Positions 6,454-61,647 are shown, counted from the first letter of the stretch. The stretch is 64,000 nucleotides of DNA from Candidatus Latescibacterota bacterium (GCA_965198115.1 OZ240241.1:3648001-3712000), one strand, 5' to 3'. Notes: generated by a model not told the origin, from the sequence alone. A program made the numbers and translations.

Positions 6454-6613
6454 CGAGCGCCAAACGGAGAGGGTGATGAGAACTGCGAAAAACCCGGGAG
6501 AGGTACCGGCCTGAAGGAGAGGATACGCGCCAGTGTTGCTGAATATAGCGGGGCTGCTCAGACCGGTCAACCGCGATGTCCGTCTCTCGCATCGACGACG
6601 CGAACGGACTGCC

Positions 6614-7549
6614 TCATTCGGGACCCGGGAGCTGCTCGTAGGCGCGAAACACCACGTCGAGATCTCGCCGTGCTTTGTCATAGCCCGAGCGGGTCGGCCC
6701 TCCGTCCAAAAAAGCCAGAAATTCGTCCATCATCGCGCCATAGCCGAGCAGATCGCCGAGTCCGGGCACGGAAAAGGCGCGTCCTCGCCCGGAGAGACTC
6801 GCATAGATGCCGTTGCTCTCGAACACGATCCTGCCTGCATCCCCAACGATCTCAGAATGCTGAAACGTCCCTTTCGTCAGGGAAGGTGTGTCCCACCCGT
6901 AATCGACCTCCCCGATGATTCCATTCTCGAATTCGACCTTCAGAACCGCGTGACGCTCCGGATCGTCTGCGCGATACCCCGGAAAGCGAGCGCGAACGTC
7001 AACGACCTCCGCATCGGCGAGTGCGGTGAGCAACGCCACGAAGTGGATGCCGCCCTCGATCAAGGCACCGTAACAGGCCCGCCAACCAGACCCTTCTTGC
7101 ATCGTACACTTCCTCAGCCGAATGCCGGTCACCCTACCTACCTCACCCGCATCGATCCACGCCCGAAGCTTCGCGAGCGAAGGCTTGAACACATAGTTCT
7201 CCGCCACCATCAGACGCGCAGTCGGTGCGGTGTCAATGGCTTGCAGCTCTGCCCGTTCCAGGCACATCGGCTTCTCGACGAGAACGGTTTTCCCCGCTTC
7301 AAGAGCCGCGATGACCTGCTCCGCGTGGACATCGGGCGGCGATGTGATCACCACCGCCTCGACCGCGGGATCGCGAATGACCGAATCATACGTGTCGTAA
7401 GTCCCTTCTCCTCCGGCCTGTGAGTTCATCGCTTCGGCGCTATCGGGCGATCGACTGTGGAACACCGCGCGCACTCGACCCCGCAACCGTTTCACGTGGG
7501 ACGCGCAGATCGCCCCACACCCCACGAAACAGACGAGCGAGTCAGCCAC
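6614..7549 (-). CDS. Gfo/Idh/MocA family oxidoreductase
   Basis: VGCGAI, AGKTVLVEKPM, GALIEGGIH. Confidence 0.88.
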   Translation of the reverse strand: MADSLVCFVGCGAICASHVKRLRGRVRAVFHSRSPDSAEAMNSQAGGEGTYDTYDSVIRDPAVEAVVITSPPDVHAEQVIAALEAGKTVLVEKPMCLERAELQAIDTAPTARLMVAENYVFKPSLAKLRAWIDAGEVGRVTGIRLRKCTMQEGSGWRACYGALIEGGIHFVALLTALADAEVVDVRARFPGYRADDPERHAVLKVEFENGIIGEVDYGWDTPSLTKGTFQHSEIVGDAGRIVFESNGIYASLSGRGRAFSVPGLGDLLGYGAMMDEFLAFLDGGPTRSGYDKARRDLDVVFRAYEQLPGPE

Positions 7550-9035
7550 GTACGATGCCCTCCCCGATCCTCAGAGCGTTGGCGGCGATCGTCAAGCTCG
7601 GGTTGACACCCGCTGACGTAGGAAACGCGCTGCCGTCGCTCACGTAGACGTTCTCCGCCTCCCTGAGATGCCCAGCACGATCCACCGGCCCTGCCTCTGG
7701 ATCGTCCGACATGTGGAGTGTCCCCAGCGCGTGGGAGAACGTATCGAGTCGATAGCGATACGGAAATCGTCCGCCAGCAGCTTTCAAAATCGCAGCGGCG
7801 TGATCCGCTAACAGCCGGTTGCGAGCGTAGTCGGCCGATGTGTAATCGTGGGTCACGCGTATCGTGGGGAAGCCATCGGAATCGACCCGATCGACCAGGG
7901 TCATCCTGTTGTCGCTCTGCGGCTCATCCTCGGCGACACAGAGGAGATTTTGCAGACGTCGATGCGTCAAGTCGAGGAGGCATCGCCCCCACCACGGTGC
8001 GTGGCGCTTCATCACTTCTGCCGACGGGGTGTAAATATCCTGAATCACGCCCCCGGCCGTCCCGTCCTTTTCCCGGAACGCTTCGTAGAAATCGGTTAGG
8101 CAGACTTGCTTATGGAACGTCTCATCTGGATTCGTCTGAAACGGGAAGAGGCACGTGACGATCGTGTTGCAATGCCGCATCAGATACCGCCCGACGGCCG
8201 GGTGGGAGCCCAGCCCCGACCGCATCAGAAGAGCCGGCGACTCGATCGCGCCCGCCGCAACGACGACGATGTCGGCTGACACTTCGACACGTGCCGATGT
8301 GGCCCGATCGACGCAGACGAGACCGGTCGCGTGCGGCCCGGACCGCGAGATTTCGTGCACGCGCGTATGGGCGAGGACGGTCAGCCCCGCCTCGACGGCT
8401 CGTCGCAGAAAGGTGCGCGTCACATCGTTCTTCGCTTCGAGCTTGCACGGAAACCCGTCACACGTCGTGCAGCGGATGCAACGGGGTTCCCGCTCATCCG
8501 TAAAATTGATGGCCAGCGGCAGCGGAAACGGACGATGTCCCAAAGATCTCGCTGCTTCCGCGATACGTTCGGCGGGCGCCGTGTAGTCGATGGAGCCGAA
8601 CGGATAGGGCGCCCGGCGAGGCGGTTCGAACGGATCGGCGCCGGCAGTTCCGTGCACACCCAGAATGGCTTCTGCCTCGTCGTAACGAGGCGACAGGTCC
8701 TCGTAGTCGATCGGCCAGCGTGCGAAATCCGTCTCCCGCAACCTCAGGGCGGCGCCACCGTAGAACACCGAGTTCCCCCCCACCACGGCATTCGCGTGTT
8801 CTACACGCGTAGCACCGTCCCCATAGAGCACAGATTCGTAACCGGACTCCGAACGGTATCGCTGATCGAGCAGAATCCGACGCGGCGACCAGTCGTCGTC
8901 ATCGCGAGCGGGCCATCCACCGCGCTCGATCACCACCGTGCGTAACCCCGCCTTGACGCAGGCGTAGGCTGTTGCCGCGCCGCCAAAACCGGACCCGACC
9001 ACGGCTACGTCAAAGGAGTTCGATCTCGTAGACAT
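7542..9035 (-). CDS. GMC family oxidoreductase
   Basis: VVGSGFGG, VGGNSVFY, CIRCTTCDGFPC, AAGAIESP, HALGT, GVNPSLTIAANALR. Confidence 0.9.
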   Translation of the reverse strand: MSTRSNSFDVAVVGSGFGGAATAYACVKAGLRTVVIERGGWPARDDDDWSPRRILLDQRYRSESGYESVLYGDGATRVEHANAVVGGNSVFYGGAALRLRETDFARWPIDYEDLSPRYDEAEAILGVHGTAGADPFEPPRRAPYPFGSIDYTAPAERIAEAARSLGHRPFPLPLAINFTDEREPRCIRCTTCDGFPCKLEAKNDVTRTFLRRAVEAGLTVLAHTRVHEISRSGPHATGLVCVDRATSARVEVSADIVVVAAGAIESPALLMRSGLGSHPAVGRYLMRHCNTIVTCLFPFQTNPDETFHKQVCLTDFYEAFREKDGTAGGVIQDIYTPSAEVMKRHAPWWGRCLLDLTHRRLQNLLCVAEDEPQSDNRMTLVDRVDSDGFPTIRVTHDYTSADYARNRLLADHAAAILKAAGGRFPYRYRLDTFSHALGTLHMSDDPEAGPVDRAGHLREAENVYVSDGSAFPTSAGVNPSLTIAANALRIGEGIVRG

Positions 9036-9813
9036 ACAGGACCGCGAGCGAAACGATGATTATCCACGCCGCATAGTGAAACTTTTCCCTGGCATCGATG
9101 TAGGTCTGAATCCGTTCCAGGTCGGGTCGGAATTTTCCCGACATGTTTCTCTGGATATACGTCTTGTAGTACTCCACCAGAAATCGCTCGAGCCCACCAT
9201 TCATGTAAATCAGGAAGCCCAGCGAAATAGGACGAGCGTCATCGTTGACGTAGTAAAAGAGCGGTGACGCAACCGCCACGACAACGGCGGACCGTTGAAA
9301 CTTGAACCACCTGAATCCTTCAAAAGGCGCGTCCTTGTAGGCACCGCCGAGGGATACGATCAGTCCGGATCCATAGGCCACGACAAGAAAGGTAAGGGGG
9401 CGCTCGATCGGCGTGGGAATCGTCAGGACGGCGAACACGCCGGCCACCAGGAGCAGACCGGCCCCACGCCGGATCCAGTCGTCCCCCACATACCTGCCCA
9501 GGAACGTGATCCTCGATGGAACGAAATACTTCGCCTGATCCTCCGTTCGGAAGAAGCCCTTGTAAAGCTCGGCCAGAAACCGCTCCAGACCCATCACGAG
9601 AAAAAACAGCTGGAAGAGAGCGAGTTCCCTGAACGGAGCAGCGAACGGTGGCAAGTAGTAAAGTAGGACGAAGAGAACGATGTGGAAGTAGATGCTGCGG
9701 GGAAAAGTCTTCGGTTTGAGACCTTCGTAGGGCGAATCCTTGAACGCCCCCCATAAACACGTGTAGAATCCGGAAACGATCGTCACGAACAAAGGCAGGA
9801 AGAGTGGATGCAT
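9010..9813 (-). CDS. Hypothetical membrane protein with internal two-fold repeat
   Basis: Several hydrophobic helices. GAFKDSPYEG..GLERFLAELYK is repeated as GAYKDAPFEG..GLERFLVEYYK. Confidence 0.8.
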   Translation of the reverse strand: MHPLFLPLFVTIVSGFYTCLWGAFKDSPYEGLKPKTFPRSIYFHIVLFVLLYYLPPFAAPFRELALFQLFFLVMGLERFLAELYKGFFRTEDQAKYFVPSRITFLGRYVGDDWIRRGAGLLLVAGVFAVLTIPTPIERPLTFLVVAYGSGLIVSLGGAYKDAPFEGFRWFKFQRSAVVVAVASPLFYYVNDDARPISLGFLIYMNGGLERFLVEYYKTYIQRNMSGKFRPDLERIQTYIDAREKFHYAAWIIIVSLAVLYVYEIELL

Positions 9814-9942
9814 CGATCGTCTCCCGGGGAACCCGAGAATCGTTGGAGAGCCTACGTCCGGGGCCGGTGTGGGTCAAGCCAGACAAACAAAAAAGCGGAA
9901 CGCACGAACGTTCCGCCAGTGATTCGGGATCGGATACCGCAG

Positions 9943-12417
9943 CTACTCGGCAGCCGCCGCTGCCTGGGGCTCAGAATACCCCTCCCCGGCACCCTCGTTC
10001 CGCGAATCCTTCTCCTCGTGTTGTTCCAGAGCTTGCAGGATCGCCGGTAGTACGACGACAGCTGCCACAAAGCACGTCACCAACCCGATCAAGGCCAACA
10101 CACCGATCGAATTGAGCCCGGGATGCGTGGCCATGCGGAGACCGAAAAAACCCACCATCGTCGTGAGCATGGACGCGAACATGGCGCCCCCTGTACTCCG
10201 GAGCACGAGACGCAAAGACCCGGGACCCTCTTCGCGATAACGGTGGTAGAGATGCACACCATTGTCGATACCCATCCCGATGATCGTCGGGAGCGCGACC
10301 ATGTTGTAAAAGTTCAGCTTCATCTTAAACAGATACATCACTCCACACATCCAGACAGCACCGCAGATCAGCGGAAACATCACCATCAGTGCTGGACGTA
10401 GGCCTCTGAAGTCCGCGATCACGATCAGGAAAACGACCGTCAAGGTCACGCCGATCGCGGTCGGACTGTCACGCAACATGAGCTGCAGCATGTCCGAAAA
10501 GACCATGCTTGCGCTAGACGAATAGACGACGTCGCCCTTTGCGGTCTGAATCTCCTGCGCGTCCTCGGCGAAGGCCATCGCGTTCTTCCCGTCGCGCAGT
10601 TGGACGTCAGGGTAAATGAACGCAAAGTGAGCCCGACTTCCGTCGATCGTCGAGAATTTCCGCAGAATCATCTTCGGCAGATCATCGATCGTCAAGAGTT
10701 CGACATCCAACAGATTCCTGAGTTCATTCAGACGCTCACGCTGCTCGCCTTTGATCAGGTCAGCACTGGGCCCATCCGTCAGATCTCGAAGCTCTCCGAT
10801 CAACTCCATTTTGTCGTCTTGGTCCTTAGGAAGGAAGGACCACAGAGTGCGCACCGTGTCGATCGTCGGGGTAGGGTCTTCATCTGCGATCTTTGCCTCT
10901 ACCGCGGTGACGATGTCGTCCAGTTGCGCCTTGTCTCTGGCCAGCACCAGGCTCGGCGACTGCGAAAGCTTATTGAAAGGAGAGATCGTCCTGATCTTGC
11001 GCTTCACATCGGCCGACGACGGAAGGTTCGAGCGCAAGTTCGTAAAGTCGTACTCGAACTGAATGTGGCGGAGGTTATACGCAAAGTAGATCGTCACGAT
11101 CACGCCGATCGCTAGCACGGTCTTCGCACGGGGGAACCGCCCTCGGGCCGTGTGCAGATCTCCGTGGCCCCAAACCGGTCGTGCGCGAACCAGACCGAGC
11201 TTTTCGTCTGCCAGAACGATAAACGCCGGCAAGACCGTCGTCATAGCGACCAGCGACATCAGGATACCCGTTCCCACGATGAAGCCGAACTCCGAAAAAC
11301 CTTTGAAGTCGGTGATCGTAAGAGAAAAGAATGCCATCGACGTCGTCAGCGCGGCCGTGAAGATCGCCTGCCCGGTTTGGATCAGCATCGTGTCGATCGC
11401 CGATCGCACGTCCACCCGACCGATGCGGTCTTCCAGATACCGGGCGAACATGTGAATCCCGAAGTCGATCCCCAGCCCGAACAGAATGACGAACAGGAAA
11501 GCCGTCATTGTGTTGAGGTTGCCGATTACCCAGTAGGTGATCGCAAACGCCCACATCAGTCCCATCGCCAGGGGCGTTGCAATAAAAAAGACAGCCAACG
11601 GCTGCCTGAAGTAAATCGTCAGAATCAGAAAGACGCCGACCACGCCGTAGATCAGCGTGGACCTCACATCCTTCATGATCACGTCGAATTCGTCGATCTT
11701 GTTCTTGTAAGTTCCCCCGTAGCGGACTTGCAGGTCTGAGTGGTAGGCGCCGGGGCCGACTCTCCCAACTGCGTCCCGCAGTGTACGGTGCATGGCCTTC
11801 GTGAATCCGATATTGCTGACCGTGCCCGCCGCTTCCACCTCGAGCGCGACGATCGATTTGTCCGGATTCGTGAAGTAAGTGTCGTCGCCGTTCTCGCTTT
11901 TGTATTTCGCCTCGATGTCACTAAAGTCGAGCGGCGCGTCGTCTGCGTCATCATCGAGCTGAATGAACAAGGGCGACAGCTTCAGCTTCTCCTGCGCGAT
12001 CCGGTCCTCGATGCGAATGAGGATTTCTTCCAGATCTTCAATATCCATGTAGAGCAGTGCGTGGTCTTTATAGAACTGAACATCCTTCTTGAAGCTCACG
12101 AAATTCACGTGTTCCCGATACGTGTCATTCTGCAATTCTGCAGCGAGCGCGTCCGCGAATCGTTTCAATGCGTCGAAGTCATCGCATTCGAGCAGAACGA
12201 TCATGCTCCCCACGCCACCCACGACGGCTTCGATTTCTTTCAGGGTCTGAACGCTCTTGTAGTTCTCGGGAATGAGCGCGGCGATATCCGTCTCGATATT
12301 CTTGACCAGCCTGACGACGTAAACGGAACTGATCGCCGTCAAGATGGTGGACAGAATCACGATCCACTTGTAGTGGTCGTAGGTGATCCTGGCCAGGCTG
12401 TGGAAAAACGTCTTCAT
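9943..12417 (-). CDS. MMPL/RND family transporter (HpnN-like)
   Basis: Two repeats of TM helix, large loop and five TM helices; GLGIDFGIH and GMGIDNGVH motifs. Confidence 0.9.
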   Translation of the reverse strand: MKTFFHSLARITYDHYKWIVILSTILTAISSVYVVRLVKNIETDIAALIPENYKSVQTLKEIEAVVGGVGSMIVLLECDDFDALKRFADALAAELQNDTYREHVNFVSFKKDVQFYKDHALLYMDIEDLEEILIRIEDRIAQEKLKLSPLFIQLDDDADDAPLDFSDIEAKYKSENGDDTYFTNPDKSIVALEVEAAGTVSNIGFTKAMHRTLRDAVGRVGPGAYHSDLQVRYGGTYKNKIDEFDVIMKDVRSTLIYGVVGVFLILTIYFRQPLAVFFIATPLAMGLMWAFAITYWVIGNLNTMTAFLFVILFGLGIDFGIHMFARYLEDRIGRVDVRSAIDTMLIQTGQAIFTAALTTSMAFFSLTITDFKGFSEFGFIVGTGILMSLVAMTTVLPAFIVLADEKLGLVRARPVWGHGDLHTARGRFPRAKTVLAIGVIVTIYFAYNLRHIQFEYDFTNLRSNLPSSADVKRKIRTISPFNKLSQSPSLVLARDKAQLDDIVTAVEAKIADEDPTPTIDTVRTLWSFLPKDQDDKMELIGELRDLTDGPSADLIKGEQRERLNELRNLLDVELLTIDDLPKMILRKFSTIDGSRAHFAFIYPDVQLRDGKNAMAFAEDAQEIQTAKGDVVYSSSASMVFSDMLQLMLRDSPTAIGVTLTVVFLIVIADFRGLRPALMVMFPLICGAVWMCGVMYLFKMKLNFYNMVALPTIIGMGIDNGVHLYHRYREEGPGSLRLVLRSTGGAMFASMLTTMVGFFGLRMATHPGLNSIGVLALIGLVTCFVAAVVVLPAILQALEQHEEKDSRNEGAGEGYSEPQAAAAAE

Positions 12418-13022
12418 CGATCGCCCTGCAACGGCGCCTCCTCTTCCTTCTTGAGCTTATCCCTCAGCTTCTTGACCAGCCCCTCGTACGAACTCTTGCG
12501 GATTTCTTTTCGAAATTGCGACCGGTTGTTTCGAGCGACGCTCAGATCATCGATCACCATGTCGTAGATCAGCCAGACGTCGTCACGTTTGTGCAGCCGG
12601 TAGGCAATGGTGCTCTGCTCCGTCTTGTAATGCACGATCGTTTCGACCGAACCTTCGTCACCTTCCTGCTCCTCGCCAACGTAGTCGACTCGCTCGGCTT
12701 TCTTATAAAGCTGAGGATCGGCATAGTTGCGCTCGATTAACCGTCGACACAGATCCGTGAAGTCTCGACGCTCGTCATCGGTTCGATCTTTCCAGTATCG
12801 TCCGAGTGAAAGCTCGCTGTAGCGGCGGAAGTCGAAAAGTCCGCTGACGATCGATCTGATCTGATCCCGCTCCGCAGGTGTTTCACCTCCGGTCGGAGAC
12901 CGGACGATCGATTCAATAGCCTGGTTGCGATCCCGAACCAGATCCAACAGCGGAGATGCCGATTCTGCGAAAGCCGCCCCGCCCGAAGACAGAAGGAGGA
13001 ATATACAGAAACGAGTCGCCAT
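12414..13022 (-). CDS. MlaC/Ttg2D/HpnM-like periplasmic lipid-binding protein
   Basis: Signal peptide; FDFRRYSELSLGRYW, WLIYDMVIDDLSVARNNRSQF. Confidence 0.88.
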   Translation of the reverse strand: MATRFCIFLLLSSGGAAFAESASPLLDLVRDRNQAIESIVRSPTGGETPAERDQIRSIVSGLFDFRRYSELSLGRYWKDRTDDERRDFTDLCRRLIERNYADPQLYKKAERVDYVGEEQEGDEGSVETIVHYKTEQSTIAYRLHKRDDVWLIYDMVIDDLSVARNNRSQFRKEIRKSSYEGLVKKLRDKLKKEEEAPLQGDR

Positions 13023-13144
13023 CTCAAATTTTCCTTGTTTTTAGAAGACTTACAGTCGATCCAGACGCACAAAGGGGAACCGTGCCGGTCGTCGTCCTGA
13101 AGACGAGCAAGCCTGGCAAAGGTTCCCCTTGGATTGCTCCGATG

Positions 13145-14608
13145 TTAGTCGGCCTTTTCGGTAATCAGCTCCGGTTCGGGAGTGGCCACCGAACGAGACG
13201 GCCAAAAACCTCGTGAACGCATCAGATGACCGGCGTAGATCAGGATCGATAACGTGATGAGGCTCGACCCGACAGCAAAAATCCAAAACATCGTCGCACG
13301 GGCATTCGCGAGCGCGAGAACAGCGAACAGGGCGGCGAAGAAATCACGCCGGCTGGCGAATTTCAGGTGGTGTGAAACCCGATGAAACCATCCGCGGCGT
13401 TCTTTAGGCACTTCGTCCAGGAACGTCTCGTTGAAACTCACAATGCTCCCGGATCCGGACAAACGCAGGTAGATGAAAACCAGCGATAGCGCCATAATCA
13501 ACGAGGCGATCACGAAGCACGAAAGAGTAAGCACGTTCGAGTCACCGGTGTATCGATACATCCCAACCGCGATCGCCACGAAGAACACGAAATAGGACAC
13601 GTTGTCAGCGACCGTGTCAACCCACTCCCCGAGGTTGGACCCCTGGAACTTGAGGTTCGCCACTTCCCCATCACATCCGTCGACGATGCTGGCGAACTGG
13701 AACAGAAGACCACCTGCCGCAAGGGACAGATACGAGGGATCCGCAATGAAGTAGGCCGCCACGAAGCTCACACACATCGTCAAGATCGAAATGTGGTTCG
13801 GCGTAAGCCGTGTTTTCACAAGCTGACGTGAAATGCGTGTGGAGAGTTTCCGATTGAAGTACTTCGACACGAGACCGTCGGTCGGTTTCCCCAGGTTGGC
13901 GATCAGCGCGTTTTCTGCGTGGATGTGTGATTCCGGCGTATCGACGTCCAGCCAGAACAGGTCGCCGATATCGGTCGTACGCATCCTCCCCTGTACGGCC
14001 AACTCCTGGATCCCCGCCGAAAGCGACTCCTCGCCTCGAGCAACTGCTGCCTCCAGCGCGTCGAACAACGTTGAGGAACAGGAAAATACGCCCGTGTCGA
14101 TCGCGTTGAAGTCCGTTAACGTCTTCCCGATTTCCTCGACCTGGTCCGCACTCACTCGCACTTTCGTCGCATCGTCCACGTCGAAAATGTCGTCGACGCG
14201 TCGATCGACACCGAGCGAACACTCACCGGCCGCCAGCGTCGTGTTCTGCATTACCACGAAAACGCCGGGATCGAGCAGATGGTCCGACATGGTCAGAATG
14301 AACGGCTCGTCACCCACCAGAGGCCTGGCAGCGAGAACCGACAGCCCGTTCCCTCTCTCCCAGTCCGCGTTGAAAACCCAGTCGATGCGCGTTTTGATCT
14401 GCGAATCCCCGGCAATCGCCTCTCGGATCTCATCCGAGCGGTGACCCGTCACAATGACGACACGCTCGATACCCGCCCGCTCCGCCGTCAGAATCGTACG
14501 CTTGAGTAAGCCGACGCCCGCAACGGCGACGAGCGGCTTGGGGAGGTGACTGTGGCCGTTCAAACGACTGCCCGCCCCCGCGGCGATGATGACGGCCTGC
14601 TTGACCAT
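13145..14608 (-). CDS. Bifunctional NTP transferase / CDP-alcohol phosphatidyltransferase (IPCT/DIPPS-like)
   Basis: IAAGAGSRL..PKPL at the N-terminus; DGCDGEVA..GEWVDTVAD CDP-alcohol phosphotransferase motif. Confidence 0.9.
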   Translation of the reverse strand: MVKQAVIIAAGAGSRLNGHSHLPKPLVAVAGVGLLKRTILTAERAGIERVVIVTGHRSDEIREAIAGDSQIKTRIDWVFNADWERGNGLSVLAARPLVGDEPFILTMSDHLLDPGVFVVMQNTTLAAGECSLGVDRRVDDIFDVDDATKVRVSADQVEEIGKTLTDFNAIDTGVFSCSSTLFDALEAAVARGEESLSAGIQELAVQGRMRTTDIGDLFWLDVDTPESHIHAENALIANLGKPTDGLVSKYFNRKLSTRISRQLVKTRLTPNHISILTMCVSFVAAYFIADPSYLSLAAGGLLFQFASIVDGCDGEVANLKFQGSNLGEWVDTVADNVSYFVFFVAIAVGMYRYTGDSNVLTLSCFVIASLIMALSLVFIYLRLSGSGSIVSFNETFLDEVPKERRGWFHRVSHHLKFASRRDFFAALFAVLALANARATMFWIFAVGSSLITLSILIYAGHLMRSRGFWPSRSVATPEPELITEKAD

Positions 14609-14641
14609 TGGATGGATCCTTTCGTTCCGTGAGTCTCGGCC

Positions 14642-16006
14642 TCAATGGGCCGACAAAACTGAACTGCCTGTTGCCAGGTTCAACGCGATCCAGGCCTTGT
14701 TGAACTTGTAGACGGCCTCGAAATACTTTCCTCGAATAATGCCGTACTCCTTCACCGCATCGATCAATTCACTCGCGTCCTCGAGTCCCGCATTGAACCC
14801 GTCCCGCGCCGAAAGAAACCAGCGGCGCGTCGCCCGCCGCGCCTTGCGTGCGGCAGTCACGTTCGCCTGCGCTTCGATCAGGTCGCGGTACGCGCGTTCG
14901 ATCTGAAGACTCGCTCCCATCGTCGCCAGCTCGCTCTGATACACCAGCTTGGCGTGTTCCAGCTTTGACTTCCGTGCCTTCGCCGATGTTTGTCCGAACG
15001 AAAGCGATTGCCGAAGCCCGATCACGGCGCCCGCCTGAAGGAAATTGAAATCGTCGCGCGCAAACGGACTCGACTGATCGTCACGATTGGGTGCGTAACC
15101 GTATCGAAAGCCTCCCGCCACGAACACCTGCGGGAAAAATTCGGCTCGAGCCGCCGACGCCTGAGCCTTGAGGACTCGAAGACCGGCCGCCAGTTGCTGT
15201 AGATCGTGCCGCTGCCGCGCACGATCCAGATACGACGAAAGCGGGGCAATGCCTGCGTCGACAGGCTGCAAGACCTCGTCAGCCAGAAGAATCGAATCTT
15301 CGGCTCCCAGCCCCATCAGCCGACGCAAAGCCGACGTGATCAGCGCCCTGCCTTTGACGACCTTGTTGCCGTTCTCTTCCACGTCGAACACGAATCGATC
15401 GAGCTTGAAGAGGTCCGTGTATGTGTAATCCCCTTCGTCGGCCTCGAGCGCCTCGTCGATTCGGTCTCGAGCCTTCCCGATTTCGGTTCGCGCCTCGTCG
15501 GCCAGATCGGAAAGGTGGTGAGCGAGCAACAGACCGAAGTAAGCCTCGGCAACCTGCGCCGTCAGCCTCTCCCGCGATCCGGCAACACCCGCCGTGCGGG
15601 CTTCGATCCCCGCCCTGGCGGCATCCCGCGCAGCCCCCAGTCGACCGAACGTGTAGAGCGGCTGAACGAACGTCAGCTCCGTTCGATTGAAGACACTCAG
15701 GTTCGAAAGGTTCGTCTCGCCACTGACCGCATCGCCACGTGCCTCCGGCGAAGGGCCCACCACCCACGTCAGGTCCAGCTTCGGGAGGTAGCGAACAGCC
15801 TCGGCCTGATCGGCCAGCGCCTGCGCGATCCGGAGATCCGCATCGGCCGCCCGAACCTCGGGGCTGACCGCAAGCGCAGCCTCCACGCACGCCCTCAGAT
15901 CGAAGGTCTCCGCGTGGGCGGGCTGAAGACCGAACGTGGAGCCCGTCGAGCAAACGGCGGAGATGAGGAACTGGACCCACCATAGGTGTGAAATTTTTCT
16001 ACACAT
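14642..16006 (-). CDS. TolC family outer membrane protein (start uncertain)
   Basis: Two OEP repeats (YLPKLDL..QPLYTFG; FFPQV..), VAEAYFGL, signal-like N-terminus. Confidence 0.82.
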   Translation of the reverse strand: MCRKISHLWWVQFLISAVCSTGSTFGLQPAHAETFDLRACVEAALAVSPEVRAADADLRIAQALADQAEAVRYLPKLDLTWVVGPSPEARGDAVSGETNLSNLSVFNRTELTFVQPLYTFGRLGAARDAARAGIEARTAGVAGSRERLTAQVAEAYFGLLLAHHLSDLADEARTEIGKARDRIDEALEADEGDYTYTDLFKLDRFVFDVEENGNKVVKGRALITSALRRLMGLGAEDSILLADEVLQPVDAGIAPLSSYLDRARQRHDLQQLAAGLRVLKAQASAARAEFFPQVFVAGGFRYGYAPNRDDQSSPFARDDFNFLQAGAVIGLRQSLSFGQTSAKARKSKLEHAKLVYQSELATMGASLQIERAYRDLIEAQANVTAARKARRATRRWFLSARDGFNAGLEDASELIDAVKEYGIIRGKYFEAVYKFNKAWIALNLATGSSVLSAH

Positions 16007-16140
16007 GTTGCGCTTTTGCAACGAAAACCTCCACACCGCACCCCGAATCGCCGATGGCGACCCCGGTGCAAGCGCACAGTCCCCTCCCCCCGCTTAGCCG
16101 AACCTAAGGGTGCGAAAGACGTGCCAGAAGTATGGGAATA

Positions 16141-17145
16141 TCAAGGACTTGGCGCCCCGGAGACCACAGGGGTCGTCGACTCGGGGCGCCGCCGGTTGAA
16201 GACCATAAGGCCGAATCCGACGGCGATCCAGAAGATCTTCCGAATCCGACGGATCAATCCCACCGAAAGACCCAGAGCGGGTTCGAGCCCGAGTAGGTGG
16301 AACAGGAAGACGTGTCCTCCCTCGAAGACACCCACACCGGAAGGGACGAAGAAGAAGGCCGCGTTGATGACCGAGGACAAGGAAGCCAGGAGGAAGGCGG
16401 TGGAAAACGGGAGGGGCTCGTTCAGGATCGTCAGGATGTAGTAGATCTCGAAGGCACCGAAGAACCAGCTGAGCAGATGAAACAGGAAGGACACGACGAA
16501 CCCGCGAGGGTTGCGTCGGTAGAAGGCCGCGATGTTACGATCCGTCTCCTCGATCTGCTCACGACGTCTTTCAAGAAACGTAAGACGCATTCGGTTCAGT
16601 AGATCGAGCAACCAACCGAAGGTGTTCTGGCGCTGTTTGACGAACGCGAGGACAACGACGACGGTACACACGATGAGCGCCAGAATCAGACCGAGCCGTA
16701 CCCGCTCATCGATTTCGAACACCAAAAATGCCACGAACGTTCCGGCCACGGCGAAAAGCAGTCCACTGATCGCTTCGATCGTCTTGTTCACCACGAGAGA
16801 GGGCAGACCTCGGGTCGCCGATATGCGGGCTCTGAGAATGTAAACCTTCGCGAGTTCACCGCCGACGTGTGAAGCCGGTGTCACGTTGCCCACCGCCTCG
16901 CCTACGAGCTTGATGTGAAAAAGCCGCCAGAACTCGGGGCGGTCCTCGTCGTCCTTGTCGAAGCACGCCTGCCAGGCGAAGGTATTGCTCAGGTGCCAGG
17001 AAACGGCGATCAGGATAGCCGGGATCACCTGCCATCCAAGATCCACGACACGGTTGACGACCTGGTCCAGCCCTATCTCGAGGATGAGCCCCGCGAGCAA
17101 CAGCAGACCGACGAGCCACAGGAGGATGCGAAGAGGTGTTTTCAA
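16141..17145 (-). CDS. Lysylphosphatidylglycerol synthase TM / flippase-like protein (HpnL-like)
   Basis: GEAVGNVTPASHVGGELAK, FFVPSGVGVFEGG, many TM helices. Confidence 0.85.
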   Translation of the reverse strand: MKTPLRILLWLVGLLLLAGLILEIGLDQVVNRVVDLGWQVIPAILIAVSWHLSNTFAWQACFDKDDEDRPEFWRLFHIKLVGEAVGNVTPASHVGGELAKVYILRARISATRGLPSLVVNKTIEAISGLLFAVAGTFVAFLVFEIDERVRLGLILALIVCTVVVVLAFVKQRQNTFGWLLDLLNRMRLTFLERRREQIEETDRNIAAFYRRNPRGFVVSFLFHLLSWFFGAFEIYYILTILNEPLPFSTAFLLASLSSVINAAFFFVPSGVGVFEGGHVFLFHLLGLEPALGLSVGLIRRIRKIFWIAVGFGLMVFNRRRPESTTPVVSGAPSP

Positions 17146-17200
17146 GCGGAACGCTCAGCAGGGAACCGTGGGGACCGGCCCGTTGGGCAAACAGAGGAGG

Positions 17201-18751: not shown

Positions 18752-18753
18752 GC

Positions 18754-19359
18754 ATGAGCCTACTTACCAAAAAACTGCCTACACTCGTCGCCATCAGTCT
18801 GTGCGCGGTTGTCTCTCTCCTGGCCTACCCGTATCTGCAAGCCCAGGTCCCCGTTCACTGGGGAGCTACCGGAAGCATCAACACCTACGCCGACGCAGAC
18901 ATCGCCGTTTACCTGAACCCTCTCGGCGCGTGTGTCGTGTTTCTGTTTTTCCTGCTCATTCCCTATGCCGACAGACGTCGGGTAGGACAACTCCGCAGAA
19001 TCGGTCTCTACGAACCCCTTCGGAACATCGCGGTGTTCGGTTTCTCCTATGCCCATTGCCTGGGCATGGGAATAGGAACCGGTCTGTTACCCGATCGGGC
19101 AAACTTCCTCGGCGGCCTGGCCGGCCTGCTGCTCGCCCTCCTCGGGTGGGAACTCCGTCTTCCAGCTCCACGGCGTCTGCCCCTCGCCGGACGTCTCCCC
19201 GACCAGGTCTGCCGCAGCCTCGGATCGGTAGCGCTGGTCGCCGGCATCGTTTCGGCGTCGCTCGCAACGCTGGGGGCTCCCCCGGCCACGTGGCTCGCCA
19301 TACTCTTCGGGACCACCCTGGGTTCGGCTCGTCGAGCGTGGCGGGAGATTCGAGCGTGA
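18754..19359 (+). CDS. DUF1648/SdpI-like membrane protein
   Basis: YPYLQAQVPVHWGATG motif, TM helices. Confidence 0.7.
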   Translation: MSLLTKKLPTLVAISLCAVVSLLAYPYLQAQVPVHWGATGSINTYADADIAVYLNPLGACVVFLFFLLIPYADRRRVGQLRRIGLYEPLRNIAVFGFSYAHCLGMGIGTGLLPDRANFLGGLAGLLLALLGWELRLPAPRRLPLAGRLPDQVCRSLGSVALVAGIVSASLATLGAPPATWLAILFGTTLGSARRAWREIRA

Positions 19360-35554: not shown

Positions 35555-35998
35555 TCAGGATACGTCTTCTAGGTCGACCAGCGTCGCCAGGATCTCGGCC
35601 TCCGACGCCACCTCGTCGCCCACCTTGGCGGTCGCCGAAACACGGACGACCTGTCTCCGCTGCTGGATCATCACCGCTTCCAAAATGAGCTGATCGCCCG
35701 GGACGACTCGTCGTCTGAACCGAGCCTTGTCGATTCCCATGAAGAGTGGAATCTGGCCCGCGCCCTCCTCCCCGACCATGAGGGCGGCGGTCTGTGCCAT
35801 GGCTTCCACGAGCAGCACCCCGGGCATCGTCGGTCGACCGGGGAAGTGCCCCTGAAAAAAGGGCTCGTTGGCGGTCACATTTTTCACGCCGACAGCCCGT
35901 ACTCCCGGTTCGAGCTCGATGATCGCGTCGACCATCAGAATCGGGAAACGGTGCGGCAGGATCCGCTGGATCGCCGCGTTGTCCAAGACGACCGCCAA
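35555..35998 (-). CDS. fabZ: 3-hydroxyacyl-ACP dehydratase
   Basis: LPHRFPILMVD, NEPFFQGHFPG.P.MPGVLLVEAMAQ. Confidence 0.95.
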   Translation of the reverse strand: MAVVLDNAAIQRILPHRFPILMVDAIIELEPGVRAVGVKNVTANEPFFQGHFPGRPTMPGVLLVEAMAQTAALMVGEEGAGQIPLFMGIDKARFRRRVVPGDQLILEAVMIQQRRQVVRVSATAKVGDEVASEAEILATLVDLEDVS

Positions 35999-36000
35999 AC

Positions 36001-36564
36001 CTAACGACCTGTCCTCGTCCCTGTCCCCCCTGTCTCTCTCTCGAGTTCGGTCTTCGTCGCTTCCTCCAGCGCCTCCAGAACTAACCGGGTCAGGTCGTGA
36101 CTTTCGTCCGCGAAGGCCAGGGCCGCCGTGTTCAACACGAAGTCGTAGCCCTTGTCTTTTGCGACTTCGGCGATGACCTCGTTGACCTGCCCGATGATCG
36201 GCTGCAGAAGCTCCTGCGTCTTACGCTGCAGCTTTCCGCCCTGCCCGCTGACCTCTTCCAAAAACTGTCGGAGCTCCACTTCTTTCTTCTGGATCGATTG
36301 CTGCTCTTCCTTCTTGCGCTGCTCGCTCATCAGAAGAGACTGACGCTCGAAGCTGTCCTTGAGTCGTGCCAGCTCATTCTGGGCCTTGCTGAACTCACGT
36401 GTAAGCTCCTCTTCGAAGCGCTGGGCTTCCTTCTGGGCGTCCAGGAACTTTTGAAAGTTCGTCGTAATCGCATCCGCATCGATGTAGCCGATTTTCGACT
36501 GGGCGTCAGCCCCGCCGACGAGAAGGATCGAGGCGGCCAGAATCGTCAATAGTTTCTTGTGCAT
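36001..36564 (-). CDS. skp: OmpH/Skp periplasmic chaperone
   Basis: Signal peptide, KIGYID, helical coil, VAKDKGYDFVL, DLT; located between bamA and fabZ. Confidence 0.9.
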   Translation of the reverse strand: MHKKLLTILAASILLVGGADAQSKIGYIDADAITTNFQKFLDAQKEAQRFEEELTREFSKAQNELARLKDSFERQSLLMSEQRKKEEQQSIQKKEVELRQFLEEVSGQGGKLQRKTQELLQPIIGQVNEVIAEVAKDKGYDFVLNTAALAFADESHDLTRLVLEALEEATKTELERETGGTGTRTGR

Positions 36565-36653
36565 ATCCATCTCCTGTGAGGTCGTGCGAAACCCGGCGGC
36601 TCGACCGCCACGCAACTCGTGTGTGAAGGCTGTGTCGTCCGTTTGAGCGTGTC

Positions 36654-38939
36654 TTAGAATTGGGGTCCAAATTGAAAGTGTGTCAACATCTGCGTGGGGA
36701 GCTTGTTCCCAGCCGAATCCCGACGGTCGAAGCCCCAAGCGAAATCGAATCCCATGATGCCCAGGAGCGGAGCCACGATGCGAATACCGAACCCAACCGA
36801 TCGTCTGAGATCGAGCATGCTGATCCTGGCGTGATCGTCCCACGCGTTGCCCGCGTCGGCGAACACGAGCGCATAGAATTGGTTCACCGCCAGAGGAATG
36901 CTGACTTCGGCGTTGAACAGCAGCTGCGACGTCCCCCCGATCGGAACGCCGGCCGAGTTGAGCGGACCGACCGACTGATCCTCGTACCCGCGGAGCTGCG
37001 TCCTATCGAACAGGGAGACGCCTCCGGGAGTGTAGAGTTCGCTGAAGGGAATCGGTTCGTTCCCATACCCGATCACCATGCCCAGGGTCGTCTTCAGACT
37101 GATTGCCGTCTTCCAAAACATCGGGTAGTAGAAGGTCGAGGTGATGTCGTGTTTGTGGAAGTTGACATTGCCCCCCAGAGGACCTCCAGCCACCTCCGGT
37201 CGGTAGCTGAACACGGACCCTATCGTCGCGAACGTGGGGAGGTCGCGGCTGTCCCTGGAGAAACTCATAGAGATGGCGCTCGTCACGTTGTCCCGCAGGG
37301 CGGGATCCCCGATACGAGTGGAATCTCGAAAATTGATGAAAGACACCTCGGACAGACTGTAGCCCAATGAAACGCTCGAAAAGTCTGGCCACTTCAGACG
37401 ACGACCGAGCCGAACCGAGCCACCCTGGCTGCGCTGGTCGAAATCGGCGAAAAACCGCTGGGTCGTTCGGAAGAGCTGGCCGGAAAGACTCGTGGGCGTG
37501 TTGAACATCCACGGCTCCGTGAACCCGAGCACGAAGGTCTCGCGCTGAGATCCGAACTCCCACTGGAAGTCGAGTTGCTGACCGTTCCCCATAAAGTTCG
37601 GAATCTGTAGCCCCAGCGTTCCCACCAGACCGTCCTGCTCGCTAAAACCCGCCCCGATCGACGCCGTACCCGTCTGCTTCTCCTCGACCGACACGACCAG
37701 GTCGATCTCCGACGTCGCCTCGTTCGTCTCGATGTCGGGCTCTACATTATTGAAAAAATTCAACTGCATCAGATTGCGAACACTACGTTCGATCTTCGAA
37801 CGCTGGAAAGTGTCGCCTGGCTGAATCCACAGCTCGCGCCGGATCACACGATCCTTCGTCTTGGTGTTCCCCGCGATCACGATCTCTCGCACCTTCCACG
37901 GGTCGTTCTCGATCACCGAATAGTGGAGGTTTACGATGTTGTCTTCGGCCGGCTCTTCCTTGCGCGAGACATACGCGCCGATGTAGCCGATGTCCATGTA
38001 GGCATTCCGCAGCTGCTCGAGCGACTTGTCGATGCGCTCGGTACTGTAGACAGCTCCCTCCTTCGACACGATCATCTCGTCGAACACGAAATCCGGCAGA
38101 TGCTCGTTTCCGTCCCACGAAACCGCGCCGACTCGGAATAGGGGGCCCTCGTCGATCGTGATGTGGATGAACAGGTCGCGCCCGGTCGAGTCGAAGAACA
38201 GGCTGTCGCTGACGACTTCCACTTGCCGGTAGCCGTTCTCACGATAGAAGCCCACGACCTTCTGCTTGTCCTCGTCGTAGAGATCCGCGTCGTATTTGCC
38301 TCCACCGAACCACCACCCGTCCTGTTTGGTTTCCTTCATCTGCTTCCGAAGCTTGCGGTCGGAGAAAGCCACATTGCCATCGAACGTAATTCGCTTCAGG
38401 TTGACTTTGGGGCCTTCCTGGATGCGGAAGATCAGCTCGACACGCCCGTCCTTGTCGGGGCGCCCTATCTCGGTCGAGACGCGCGCCAGATTGTGACCCT
38501 TTTCGTGGTAAGCCTCTCGGATGCCGAGTTCAGCCTCCACGCGGGCTTGAGGCCTGAGCACTTCGCCCCGTATGAACCCTGCCGTCTTTCTGAGTTTCTT
38601 GTCTTTGATCGCCTTGTTGCCCTCGAATCGGACCTCGCCGAGCCGGGGGTATTCCCGTACCTCGAAGATCACCACCACACCCCCCTCAGCCTCTTCGACG
38701 TAGACCTTGATGTCCTCGAACAGCCCGACACTGAAGAGATTTCGAATGGCGGTCGCGGGATGGTCGGGTTGGAGACGCTGATCGATGTCCAGACCGCTCT
38801 GAAAACGGACCAGCGACGCCTCGGTGATCTCGTTCCCCTCGACCCGAATCTCCTTGATCAAGGGACGTGGCGCACCCTGCCCCGACGCCGGGCGAAACCC
38901 GGCCAGAACCAACAGCAACGCACCGAGACATGGGGTCAT
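36654..38939 (-). CDS. bamA: Outer membrane protein assembly factor BamA
   Basis: POTRA repeats (GNTKTKDRVIRRE), FTEPW, LRGY, C-terminal Phe. Confidence 0.95.
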   Translation of the reverse strand: MTPCLGALLLVLAGFRPASGQGAPRPLIKEIRVEGNEITEASLVRFQSGLDIDQRLQPDHPATAIRNLFSVGLFEDIKVYVEEAEGGVVVIFEVREYPRLGEVRFEGNKAIKDKKLRKTAGFIRGEVLRPQARVEAELGIREAYHEKGHNLARVSTEIGRPDKDGRVELIFRIQEGPKVNLKRITFDGNVAFSDRKLRKQMKETKQDGWWFGGGKYDADLYDEDKQKVVGFYRENGYRQVEVVSDSLFFDSTGRDLFIHITIDEGPLFRVGAVSWDGNEHLPDFVFDEMIVSKEGAVYSTERIDKSLEQLRNAYMDIGYIGAYVSRKEEPAEDNIVNLHYSVIENDPWKVREIVIAGNTKTKDRVIRRELWIQPGDTFQRSKIERSVRNLMQLNFFNNVEPDIETNEATSEIDLVVSVEEKQTGTASIGAGFSEQDGLVGTLGLQIPNFMGNGQQLDFQWEFGSQRETFVLGFTEPWMFNTPTSLSGQLFRTTQRFFADFDQRSQGGSVRLGRRLKWPDFSSVSLGYSLSEVSFINFRDSTRIGDPALRDNVTSAISMSFSRDSRDLPTFATIGSVFSYRPEVAGGPLGGNVNFHKHDITSTFYYPMFWKTAISLKTTLGMVIGYGNEPIPFSELYTPGGVSLFDRTQLRGYEDQSVGPLNSAGVPIGGTSQLLFNAEVSIPLAVNQFYALVFADAGNAWDDHARISMLDLRRSVGFGIRIVAPLLGIMGFDFAWGFDRRDSAGNKLPTQMLTHFQFGPQF

Positions 38940-39084
38940 TCGACGATACACAGACACTCCAGGCCGACGTAGGAACCTACGTTCCGAAATACGCGTGGCC
39001 CGTAAAAAGGTTCCCCGCTCAATCACGGAAAACGGGCCCGGTAAACGGTCTCCGGGCCCGTCAGGTAGCTCTCATCCGTCGTGG

Positions 39085-60811: not shown

Positions 60812-61647
60812 TGCGTTCGAGCGGGCGATAGAAAGACAATGGACTGACTTTTGCAGATCGGAGCAAGATGATTGGACTCTGGAAATCGTGTCCCTCAATA
60901 TTCCCGACTTGCATACAGCGTTGTTTGAAAAAGGCGGACTCGAGCGAGGCGATTTCGACGTCGCTTTTGTCGTGACGGATTGGATCGCTGAAGCAGCTGC
61001 CGGGCATCACCTCGCGGATTTGCAGCCCTACTTGAAAGAGCTGCCACCGGAGGATTACCCCCACGGATGGGATCACTCTCTATTACGCTTCCAGACTTAT
61101 GGAAACGAAGTATATGGTCTTCCCTACCATAACGGACACAAATGCCTGATTTATCGAAAAGACCTTCTCGACGACCCAGGAGAACGGGCAAACTATGAGA
61201 GAAGATTCGGTAGTCGTCTTGCAGTACCGCAAACGTGGGATGAGTTTACACGGGTTGCCCGGTTCTTTAATCGCCCGAAAAGTGGAATGTCGGGTGTTGT
61301 CTTTGTCGCGCATGAGGATGGATACAATACTGTTTGCGACTTCTGTCTTCATTTGTGGTCACGAGGGGAGAGCTTGGTTACGCGAGTGGGAATCTTGTTC
61401 TGAACCATCCACTTGTGGAAGAAACGTTAGCATTCTACCGCAAGATTGTGAATGATCCCCAAATTGTCCCCGCGCATACGCGGATGTTTGACGCCGTAGA
61501 ATCGGGGATGGCTTTTGTTAGGGGCGAAGCGGCCATGATGATGAACTGGTTCAGCTGGGCAGCGCAGTGTGAACGTCTGTCCGAATCCAAAGTAAAAGGG
61601 AAGGTTGGGGTTGCTCATTTGCCGAATGAGAATGAGCAACCCGGGTT

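What the first reader, a model, noticed from the sequence alone, without database searches (positions are those of the whole stretch)
6614..17145. Uncharacterised lipid head-group synthesis and export cluster
Seen: one strand carries flippase-like protein, TolC, NTP-transferase/CDP-alcohol phosphotransferase fusion, MlaC-like protein, MMPL, a repeat membrane protein, a GMC oxidoreductase and a Gfo/Idh/MocA enzyme, several with overlapping stops and starts. Known: IPCT/DIPPS fusions make CDP-inositol and transfer it to an alcohol; HpnL/HpnM/HpnN-type proteins traffic hopanoids. No squalene-hopene cyclase, inositol-3-phosphate synthase or periplasmic adaptor lies in this window. Inference: a pathway that makes a polyol-phospholipid, modifies it by oxidation/reduction, and moves it through an adaptor-less MMPL-MlaC-TolC route.
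Basis: partly seen in the sequence, partly recalled or inferred. Interest (0 to 1): 0.7.

Follow-up and report, generated by a model that had tools for sequence, protein, structure and literature searches.

The report
Lipid exporter of LPS-less bacteria
This gene cluster lies in a two-membrane bacterium whose genome lacks the genes for the usual outer-membrane lipid (LPS), and its transporter gene is kept almost without exception in two separate bacterial classes that lack those genes; it likely makes an inositol-headed lipid and likely carries lipid to the outer membrane, which would point to what such bacteria use in place of LPS.

Summary
All eight genes are real, on the minus strand of a Ca. 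Latescibacterota genome, but they form two modules. Module A (HpnL-like, TolC, IPCT/CDP-alcohol phosphotransferase fusion, MlaC, HpnN-like MMPL) is conserved across the class, in a new gene order in another family, and in part in other phyla. Module B (repeat membrane protein, GMC, Gfo) follows a terminator-like hairpin and usually occurs without A, so the proposed redox step on the lipid is not supported. The closed genome has ino1, BamA and Lpt genes, but no hit for squalene-hopene cyclase, serine palmitoyltransferase, MlaA, LpxC or LpxB; in this window bamA-skp-fabZ has lost lpxD, lpxA and the LpxC half of the fusion. LpxC is missing in 125 of 125 genomes of the host class (MMPL in 122) and present in 28 of 28 other Latescibacterota (MMPL in 5). 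In a second phylum sample, MMPL is in 48 of 50 LpxC-negative and 0 of 151 LpxC-positive genomes. These are about two independent losses. Best reading: a CDP-inositol lipid synthase plus an MMPL-MlaC-TolC route supplying an LPS-free outer membrane. Cargo, acceptor and TolC's role are inferred; retained Lpt is a rival exporter.

The parts
16141..17145 (-). Module A. HpnL-like / LPG_synthase_TM (PF03706) membrane protein; likely a flippase or partner of lipid glycosylation (inferred)
   Evidence: Pfam E 2.6e-32; TIGR03476 169 bits, cut-off 196; in 13 of 19 order-level loci; a GT4 glycosyltransferase stands at this place in L026 and L027
14642..16036 (-). Module A. TolC-like outer-membrane factor (an ATG start at 16006 is possible); no adaptor gene beside it
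   Evidence: PF02321 E 1.3e-39; one of 7 OEP genes in the genome but the only tblastn hit to this query; one ORF with MMPL in L112
13145..14608 (-). Module A. Cytidylyltransferase (IPCT-like) fused to a six-helix CDP-alcohol phosphotransferase with a conserved amphipathic insert (about residues 385-419)
   Evidence: best solved relatives A. fulgidus IPCT/DIPPS 4MND (E 3.5e-49; TM 0.72/0.85) and IPCTs 2XME, 4JD0; motif D310xxD313G314xxA317..G327xxxD331xxxD335; model pLDDT 87.8
12414..13022 (-). Module A. MlaC/HpnM-like periplasmic lipid-binding protein with a signal-peptide-like N-terminus; the only MlaC-like hit in the genome
   Evidence: PF05494 E 5.5e-33; single tblastn hit; no MlaA and no MlaE motif in the genome
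9943..12417 (-). Module A. MMPL/RND lipid transporter of the HpnN/BstA kind
   Evidence: PF03176 E 5.6e-43; closest solved structure HpnN 6WU0/5KHN, E 9e-58; paired GxGIDxxxH motifs at 314 and 714
9894..9917 (-). Terminator-like hairpin (10 pairs, T-run) between module A and module B
   Evidence: top row of 24 terminator-like sites in 6300-19000; shuffles give 11.7 +/- 3.9 sites, so a consensus match only
9010..9813 (-). Module B. Internally duplicated membrane protein of no named family (G.[YF]KD.P.EGF..F.RS repeat); distant relatives are fused to DUF3047 or VTT/DedA domains
   Evidence: no Pfam or NCBIfam hit; no clear fold match; 319 representatives at E<=0.001; fusions P0160, P0158, P0166, P0229
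7542..9035 (-). Module B. GMC flavoprotein without signal peptide, with a Cys cluster (C186, C189, C192, C197) that aligns to the Cys-rich stretch of FAD glucose dehydrogenase
   Evidence: Pfam; best solved relatives glucose dehydrogenase 8HDD/6A2U and fructose dehydrogenase large subunits, E 1e-20 to 4e-18
6614..7549 (-). Module B. Gfo/Idh/MocA NAD(P)-dependent oxidoreductase
   Evidence: Pfam; iolG model 75 bits, cut-off 355; weak hits to many sugar and inositol dehydrogenases
35555..38861 (-). Context outside the finding: bamA (36654-38861), skp (36001-36570), fabZ (35555-35935) with no lpxD, LpxC domain or lpxA between or after them
   Evidence: BamA passes TIGR03303; FabZ matches only positions 338-462 of the LpxC-FabZ fusion model; Skp PF03938; gaps 83 and 65 nt; LpxC-positive relatives have the lpx genes here

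Best explanation
Module A is likely a lipid synthesis and export unit of a bacterium that has an outer membrane but no lipid A genes: the fusion likely makes CDP-inositol and would pass the phospho-inositol to a membrane lipid alcohol, and MMPL, MlaC and TolC likely move lipid from the inner to the outer membrane. Shown: the gene families; co-conservation; presence of ino1, BamA and Lpt genes; no hit for lpxA, lpxB, lpxC, lpxD, shc, spt or mlaA; the near-exclusive pairing of this MMPL with LpxC loss in two phyla. [quoted passage not shown] Module B is likely an independent membrane-bound sugar or polyol oxidation-reduction unit that lies next door in this order.
For: Lipid A loss: LpxC 0 hits and LpxB 0 hits in the single-contig, 100%-complete genome; LpxA and LpxD of relatives find only weak hexapeptide-repeat hits, E 6e-11 or weaker; BamA present; bamA-skp-fabZ stripped of lpx genes that 5 of 5 fetched LpxC-positive relatives carry near bamA. 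Pairing: Latescibacterota LpxC-negative 125, MMPL in 122; LpxC-positive 28, MMPL in 5. Class of G169 (a Balneolaceae locus, L121): LpxC 0 of 151, MMPL 148 of 151. Phylum of G169, 201 genomes: MMPL in 48 of 50 LpxC-negative and 0 of 151 LpxC-positive. Module coherence: TolC and fusion 19 of 19, MlaC and MMPL 18 of 19 order-level loci; same genes in another order and background in family f4; TolC, MlaC and MMPL together in a Fibrobacter locus (L113) and Balneolaceae loci (L116, L118, L123, L127, L128); MMPL and TolC in one ORF in L112. Inositol: a 41-45% identical NTP transferase directly follows ino1 near the MMPL in Balneolaceae L116, L120, L121, L122; IPCTs are the best solved relatives; ino1 in 123 of 125 class genomes. 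Lipid acceptor: the Arg after the catalytic Asp in A. fulgidus DIPPS is Asn here and an amphipathic insert is conserved; an insert-bearing relative sits between an Spt-like gene and the MMPL in L110. Precedent: NTP transferase + CDP-alcohol phosphotransferase + PF03706 clusters proposed for inositol lipids in Bacteroidetes (PMC9246714, passages).
Against: The pairing rests on about two independent LPS losses, and kin are not independent. The MMPL also occurs with LpxC: 5 of 28 Latescibacterota and 9 of 28 genomes behind the non-Latescibacterota loci. LptF/G are kept in 123 of 125 class genomes and G000 keeps lptC, an LptA-like gene and lptB; Lpt paralogues move sphingolipids in Caulobacter (10.64898/2026.04.12.717747, abstract), so Lpt could carry any LPS substitute. 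Clarke et al. state that CDP-alcohol phosphotransferases with lipid acceptors typically have 3-4 extra C-terminal helices (PMC4634129, passages); this model has six membrane helices. An IPCT-like fold does not fix the substrate: CpgD resembles IPCT yet uses phosphoglycerate (PMC12275187, part 1 of 4). ino1 is also in 24 of 28 LpxC-positive relatives and G000 has a separate PIPS-like gene that could use it. In f3, f13 and f14 the fusion lies beside polysaccharide flippases and glycosyltransferases, and in f3 the MMPL stands alone. In 5 genomes of the second lineage only 3 had the IPCT and none a close membrane-domain relative, so cargo may differ between lineages.
Confidence: 0.5

Rival explanations
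1. Module A makes and traffics an accessory lipid, as HpnN does for hopanoids, while the retained Lpt system exports the bulk LPS substitute; the link to LPS loss is shared ancestry of two clades.
For: LptF/G in 123 of 125 LPS-less class genomes; lptC, lptA-like, lptB in G000; MMPL present beside LpxC in 5 of 28 Latescibacterota and 9 of 28 other genomes, four of them next to Spt-like genes; Lpt paralogues carry sphingolipids in Caulobacter (abstract).
Against: Single-copy retention in 122 of 125 and 148 of 151 genomes, against 0 of 151 in LpxC-positive members of the second phylum sample, is more than an accessory gene usually shows; these genomes range from 2 to 8 Mb.
Confidence: 0.25
2. The fusion activates a polyol phosphate for a surface glycopolymer or glycolipid anchor (teichoic-acid-like decoration) and the transport genes move a different cargo, such as diacylglycerol, a carrier lipid or phospholipid in the reverse direction.
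For: Fusion orthologues lie beside Wzx-like flippases and GT4 genes in f3, f13, f14; in Balneolaceae ino1 and IPCT follow a PF04464 glycerophosphotransferase-like gene with flippase, Wzi and sulfotransferases; MlaC in the E. coli Mla system works retrograde (abstract of PMC10665443 in listing).
Against: In G000 no relatives of those flippase, PF04464 or Wzi genes were found; a CDP-alcohol phosphotransferase acts inside the membrane; the fusion stays between TolC and MlaC in 18 of 19 order-level loci.
Confidence: 0.13
3. One reading: all eight genes act on one lipid, with GMC and Gfo oxidising and reducing (epimerising) its head group.
For: Adjacent in 13 of 19 order-level loci for repeat protein and GMC; repeat protein in 118 of 125 LPS-less class genomes and 0 of 28 others; triad beside the MMPL in unrelated L106 and beside a CDP-alcohol phosphotransferase fusion and GT4 in L249; repeat-protein fusions to DUF3047, a domain that recurs in module A.
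Against: Separate locus in 13 of 13 f4 genomes sampled; absent from 2 closed or near-closed f2 genomes and all 3 f3 genomes that keep the MMPL; 80 distant loci carry Gfo (61) and GMC (47) but no MMPL, TolC, MlaC or HpnL, also in the 28 loci of 7 kb or more; terminator-like hairpin before the triad; unrelated neighbours are syntenic too (TPR protein 17 of 19).
Confidence: 0.15
4. The fusion is an ordinary IPCT/DIPPS making the soluble osmolyte di-myo-inositol phosphate, unrelated to its neighbours.
For: Best sequence and structure match is A. fulgidus IPCT/DIPPS over both domains; six membrane helices as in DIPPS.
Against: 254 bits against a cut-off of 580; Asn for Arg after the catalytic Asp, and a 35-residue insert absent from the DIPPS-like L039 protein; a quick tree separates it (99) from the Asp-Arg type proteins of L039, L031, L038, L040; stable linkage to lipid transport genes.
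Confidence: 0.08

Closest known systems
HpnN/HpnM/HpnL hopanoid trafficking genes
   Same: MMPL-type RND with HpnN as closest solved structure, MlaC-like shuttle and PF03706 protein; all three TIGR models hit.
   Different: All three below cut-off; no squalene-hopene cyclase in the genome; TolC in the cluster and no MlaA/VacJ in the genome; linked to a head-group transferase.
BstABC sterol transport of Methylococcus capsulatus (PMC10942540, passages)
   Same: Inner-membrane MMPL, periplasmic carrier and outer-membrane partner encoded next to lipid synthesis genes.
   Different: BstB is PhnD-like and BstC a TRAP-T lipoprotein; here the partners are MlaC and TolC; BstA model 218 of 1400 bits; no sterol cyclase hit.
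Archaeoglobus fulgidus IPCT/DIPPS (4MND) and Thermotoga IPCT (4JD0)
   Same: Same two-domain layout and fold (TM 0.72/0.85, 29% identity); GxGxR, PK, NG/GN, SD/GD, DTG and W.DvDT stretches align.
   Different: Below family cut-off; Asn after the fourth Asp; amphipathic insert; mesophilic marine host; lipid-transport neighbours.
CDP-inositol lipid routes: Rhodothermus marinus dialkylether glycerophosphoinositol synthase (Jorge et al. 2015, recalled, not seen) and the alternative Bacteroides/Prevotella cluster (PMC9246714, passages)
   Same: Activation of the head group rather than the lipid; NTP transferase + CDP-alcohol phosphotransferase + PF03706 gene.
   Different: Here fused in one chain and tied to MMPL, MlaC and TolC; no HAD hydrolase or ino1 in the cluster; I could not compare sequences with these enzymes directly.
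Caulobacter ceramide phosphoglycerate pathway (CpgD and partners; PMC12275187) and Sphingomonas glycosphingolipids (PMC13721041, passage)
   Same: A non-LPS anionic lipid that supports an outer membrane without LPS, made with a cytidylyltransferase of this fold.
   Different: No Spt found in G000; Caulobacter exports through Lpt paralogues, not MMPL.

Membership tests
Hopanoid transport (HpnN/HpnM/HpnL) | Host encodes squalene-hopene cyclase | tested here: not met
   PF13243 0 hits in the closed genome
Hopanoid transport (HpnN/HpnM/HpnL) | Scores above TIGR03480/03481/03476 cut-offs | tested here: not met
   342/752, 57/160, 169/196 bits
MMPL/RND lipid transporters | Two MMPL repeats with the paired membrane Asp motifs | tested here: met
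   PF03176 twice, above cut-off; GLGIDFGIH and GMGIDNGVH (their role in proton relay is recalled)
MMPL/RND lipid transporters | Moves a lipid across or out of the inner membrane | not testable with these tools
   needs biochemistry
Tripartite RND efflux pump (AcrAB-TolC type) | Periplasmic adaptor encoded with RND and TolC | tested here: not met
   none of the eight ORFs is an adaptor; adaptors elsewhere in the genome were not searched
Mla system | MlaA and MlaFEDB partners | tested here: not met
   PF04333 0 hits; recalled MlaE motif not found (a weaker test); MlaD not searched
IPCT (inositol-1-phosphate cytidylyltransferase) | Closest solved relatives are IPCTs and catalytic Arg, Lys, Asp align | tested here: met
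   2XME E 2.6e-24, 4JD0 E 1.9e-21, next family E 4e-11; R15, K24, D109 align
IPCT (inositol-1-phosphate cytidylyltransferase) | Uses inositol-1-phosphate as substrate | tested here: inconclusive
   ino1 present and adjacent to a 41-45% identical relative in Balneolaceae; inositol-binding residues could not be looked up
IPCT/DIPPS (di-myo-inositol phosphate synthesis) | NF041135 cut-off and Asp-Arg at the end of the signature | tested here: not met
   254/580 bits (that model is Thermococcales-specific); D335-N336 against D-R in 4MND
Class I CDP-alcohol phosphotransferases | DxxDGxxAR...GxxxDxxxD signature | tested here: met
   all four Asp and both Gly present; the Arg of AR is Asn here and Lys or Ser in close relatives
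Lipid-acceptor CDP-alcohol phosphotransferases (CEPT/CPT type) | Three or four extra C-terminal membrane helices (PMC4634129) | tested here: not met
   six membrane helices plus a short helical insert in the model
Bacterial sphingolipid clusters | Serine palmitoyltransferase in the genome | tested here: not met
   the two relatives pass BioF and Kbl cut-offs, Spt 325 and 348 of 640 bits; Spt-like queries find only these two
LPS-less diderm | BamA present, lipid A genes absent | tested here: met
LPS-less diderm | No lipid A in the cell envelope by chemistry | not testable with these tools
   host is known only as a genome

The most novel reading that the evidence does not exclude
An MMPL-MlaC-TolC system is a third route, beside Lpt and Mla, for delivering lipid to the outer membrane, and two large aquatic classes (this Latescibacterota class and the class of Balneolaceae and Rhodothermales) each fixed it when they lost lipid A; in this class its cargo is an inositol phospholipid made by a fused CDP-inositol synthase, with TolC acting as a lipid acceptor instead of an efflux channel.
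Probability: 0.3. Interest if true: 0.88.

Novelty: new variant of a known kind. Interest (0 to 1): 0.7.

Why it matters
How two-membrane bacteria without LPS build a barrier, and how lipids other than LPS reach the outer membrane, are open questions. This locus names a candidate lipid, a candidate route and two lineages in which to test them. One lineage has cultured members (Rhodothermus, Salinibacter, Balneola; recalled), so deletion and lipid analysis are possible. A TolC that receives lipid from a shuttle without an adaptor would be a new use of that protein family. Nine searches of the open paper library listed no paper on this cluster or on lipid A loss in these classes; most subscription journals are not in that library, so the loss in Rhodothermia may be in print.

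Tried and rejected
Hopanoid or sterol cargo: no cyclase. Ceramide acceptor in this genome: no Spt. Plasmalogen-synthase-like genes beside the cluster in L047 have no hit in G000. Order-level synteny as proof of function: rejected, since unrelated neighbours are syntenic too. ino1 as a marker of the system: not discriminating, 147 of 153. Fold of the repeat protein: Foldseek no match at E<=0.001, VIA-align best Z 6.8 over 111 residues, so inconclusive. The protein atlas did not answer. No RNA holder was listed for the stretch; no conclusion on expression. Two papers with IPCT and DIPPS residue data are not held, and no characterised DIPPS, Rhodothermus or Bacteroides enzyme could be placed in the tree, which is a quick unrooted tree of 38 of my own rows. 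The MMPL tree (FastTree, 41 rows chosen by me, no HpnN outgroup) does not join the LPS-less lineages into one clade and gives no order of events. KdsB, LptD and MlaA motif scans were too loose or blank and are not used. L266 was not the contig I wanted and is not used. Paper supplements were not read; Heaver et al. Supplementary Table 5 and Clarke et al. Supplementary Fig. 3 may bear on the acceptor question.

Full report
Observation. Three junctions overlap (4, 26 and 8 nt); the rest are 33-129 nt. The 267-aa protein has no family hit and is an internal duplication. Close relatives are named Ca. Latescibacterota by their sources. The genome is one contig, 100% complete, 5.1% contamination.

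Two modules. In 19 loci from 9 genera's order (20 fetched, one paralogous locus dropped), TolC and the fusion are in 19, MlaC and MMPL in 18, HpnL-like in 13, repeat protein and GMC in 13, Gfo in 8; some misses are contig or window ends. Unrelated neighbours are syntenic as well (TPR protein 17 of 19), so this alone proves little. Family f4, at 27-43% identity, keeps the HpnL-like gene, TolC, an MlaC-DUF3047 fusion, MlaC and MMPL in a new order behind a free NTP transferase and a fusion with a decayed first domain. There the repeat protein, GMC and Gfo form their own triad at another place in 13 of 13 genomes fetched (GMC or Gfo seen in part through my gene caller). Among the best 80 of 457 metagenome loci of distant repeat-protein relatives, 61 hold Gfo and 47 GMC, one a CDP-alcohol phosphotransferase fusion, and none MMPL, TolC, MlaC or HpnL; the 28 loci of 7 kb or more give 28, 26, 1 and 0. 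The best terminator-like hairpin of the region lies between MMPL and the triad. So module A (five genes) and module B (three genes) are separate units. Hints of a link remain: L106 and L249, and fusions of the repeat protein to DUF3047 and DedA-type domains.

What the genome has. ino1 is present; no squalene-hopene cyclase; the two relatives of Spt pass the BioF and Kbl cut-offs; PgsA, PssA and a PIPS-like gene exist apart; MlaA is not found and this MlaC is the only hit. LpxC and LpxB are not found, and LpxA and LpxD of relatives give only weak repeat hits, yet BamA and seven TolC-family genes are there. The window shows the loss: bamA-skp-fabZ lie 83 and 65 nt apart, and FabZ matches only the C-terminal part of the LpxC-FabZ fusion, whereas five fetched LpxC-positive relatives carry lpx genes next to bamA.

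The pairing with LPS loss. Of 153 Latescibacterota genomes at least 80% complete, LpxC is found in 0 of 125 of the host's class and 28 of 28 others. This MMPL (E<=1e-60) is in 122 of 125 and 5 of 28; the three misses are fragmented drafts of 81-86% completeness. In a sample of 151 genomes of the Balneolaceae class, LpxC was found in none and the MMPL in 148. In a sample of 201 genomes of that phylum, 151 have LpxC and none of these the MMPL; 48 of the 50 without LpxC have it (only four candidates per genome were scored). These counts stand for about two independent losses. Against an exclusive link, 9 of the 28 genomes behind the non-Latescibacterota loci have LpxC, and LptF/G are kept in 123 of 125 class genomes, with lptC, an LptA-like gene and lptB in G000.

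The fusion. Its best solved relatives are IPCT/DIPPS and IPCTs by sequence and by fold. In four Balneolaceae loci a 41-45% identical free NTP transferase directly follows ino1, close to the MMPL, which favours inositol-1-phosphate. CpgD shows that this fold can take other substrates. The membrane domain keeps the four Asp of the signature. It differs from DIPPS in two ways: Asn follows the last Asp where DIPPS and the genome's PIPS-like and PgsA proteins have Arg or Lys, and a conserved insert forms two short amphipathic helices. I read the first as loss of a phosphate-binding group, hence a non-phosphorylated acceptor; that role is my inference. Clarke et al. report that lipid-acceptor enzymes typically have extra helices, which this model lacks. 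Heaver et al. propose a cluster with the same two activities and a PF03706 gene for inositol lipids in Bacteroides and Prevotella, and cite CDP-inositol-derived dialkylether lipids. In f3, f13 and f14 the fusion lies with polysaccharide flippases and glycosyltransferases, and 3 of 5 genomes of the second lineage had the IPCT but none a close membrane domain, so head-group use may vary.

The route. The MMPL is closest to HpnN among solved structures. TolC, MlaC and MMPL travel together in Fibrobacter L113 and five Balneolaceae loci, and L112 has MMPL and TolC in one ORF. With no MlaA and no adaptor in the cluster, the simplest model follows HpnN and BstABC: MMPL hands lipid to MlaC, and TolC takes it at the outer membrane. 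No binding test could be run.

Module B. The GMC is closest to FAD glucose and fructose dehydrogenases and keeps their Cys-rich stretch; it has no signal peptide. With an NAD(P)-dependent Gfo enzyme and a small membrane protein of unknown fold it likely forms a membrane-bound oxidise-then-reduce unit for a sugar or polyol. Its substrate is unknown. It is in 118 of 125 class genomes and 0 of 28 others.

What is known. Each part has known relatives; the combination was not found in nine library searches. Papers seen: passages of PMC9246714, PMC4634129, PMC10942540, PMC12993501, PMC13721041, PMC7203096 and PMC13228409; part 1 of 4 of PMC12275187; abstract and outline of 10.64898/2026.04.12.717747; the rest as search listings; Jorge et al. 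2015 is recalled only. The passages of PMC13721041 name Borrelia and Sphingomonas as LPS-less and do not mention these classes.

Verdict. Observation confirmed; interpretation partly supported. A new variant of MMPL-shuttle lipid transport, joined to a likely CDP-inositol lipid synthase, with a strong but two-event association with loss of lipid A. Confidence in the best reading 0.5; interest 0.7.

Noticed in passing
window 35555-41541 (-): clpC-bamA-skp-fabZ with lpxD, the LpxC half of the LpxC-FabZ fusion, lpxA and lpxB missing, against the full run in LpxC-positive relatives.
   Followed up: yes
L264:910-5244 (G000:C1:1056910-1061244): pyrG is followed directly by lptC, a 424-aa LptA-like gene and lptB; no Kdo genes lie between, and a recalled KdsA motif is not found in the genome. 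Lpt is kept without LPS.
   Followed up: partly
L006:3132-6705 (G000:C1 about 141100-144700): A tetraether-synthase-like radical SAM gene (Tes model 311 of 450 bits) and a B12 radical SAM gene lie about 1-3 kb from ino1; a hint of membrane-spanning or methylated lipids in this LPS-less host.
   Followed up: no
L136:9967-11994 (G000:C1:1573966-1575993): A second HpnL-like gene is paired with a radical SAM gene that is 50% identical to the one beside the fusion in L035 and 33% to the one between ino1 and MMPL in L113; likely a displaced part of the same pathway.
   Followed up: partly
L044:14315-15682, L016:10894-12180, L137:7719-8510, L138:6541-7326: DUF3047 recurs in module A, often fused to a second MlaC domain; G000 has two free copies elsewhere.
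   Followed up: partly
L112:155-3694: One 1179-aa ORF holds MMPL, then a signal-peptide-like hydrophobic stretch, then TolC; single case, 5' end near the contig edge.
   Followed up: partly
L108, L109, L110, L130: In four gammaproteobacterial loci that keep LpxC, this MMPL follows an Spt-like gene (521-542 of 640 bits), three with CDP-alcohol phosphotransferase fusions nearby: a possible MMPL route for sphingolipids.
   Followed up: partly
L031:8578-10440, L038:9442-11604, L040: A second fusion type, NTP transferase + CDP-alcohol phosphotransferase (Asp-Arg type) + HAD hydrolase, in three genomes of the class.
   Followed up: no
L154, L155: Second MMPL copies of family f4 group inside the Rhodothermales branch of the quick tree, suggesting transfer between the two LPS-less lineages (not tested).
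   Followed up: no
window 25534-26518 (+): A D-2-hydroxyacid dehydrogenase-like gene appears split over two frames (25534-25953 and 25898-26518; name from reading the sequence).
   Followed up: no
window 54173-55451 and 59516-63670: Several transposase-like ORFs, one repeated elsewhere in the genome (names from reading the sequence).
   Followed up: no
window 2951-6453 (-): A DEAD/DEAH helicase overlapping a polyprenyl diphosphate synthase follows the cluster; kept near it in only 4-5 of 19 loci.
   Followed up: partly
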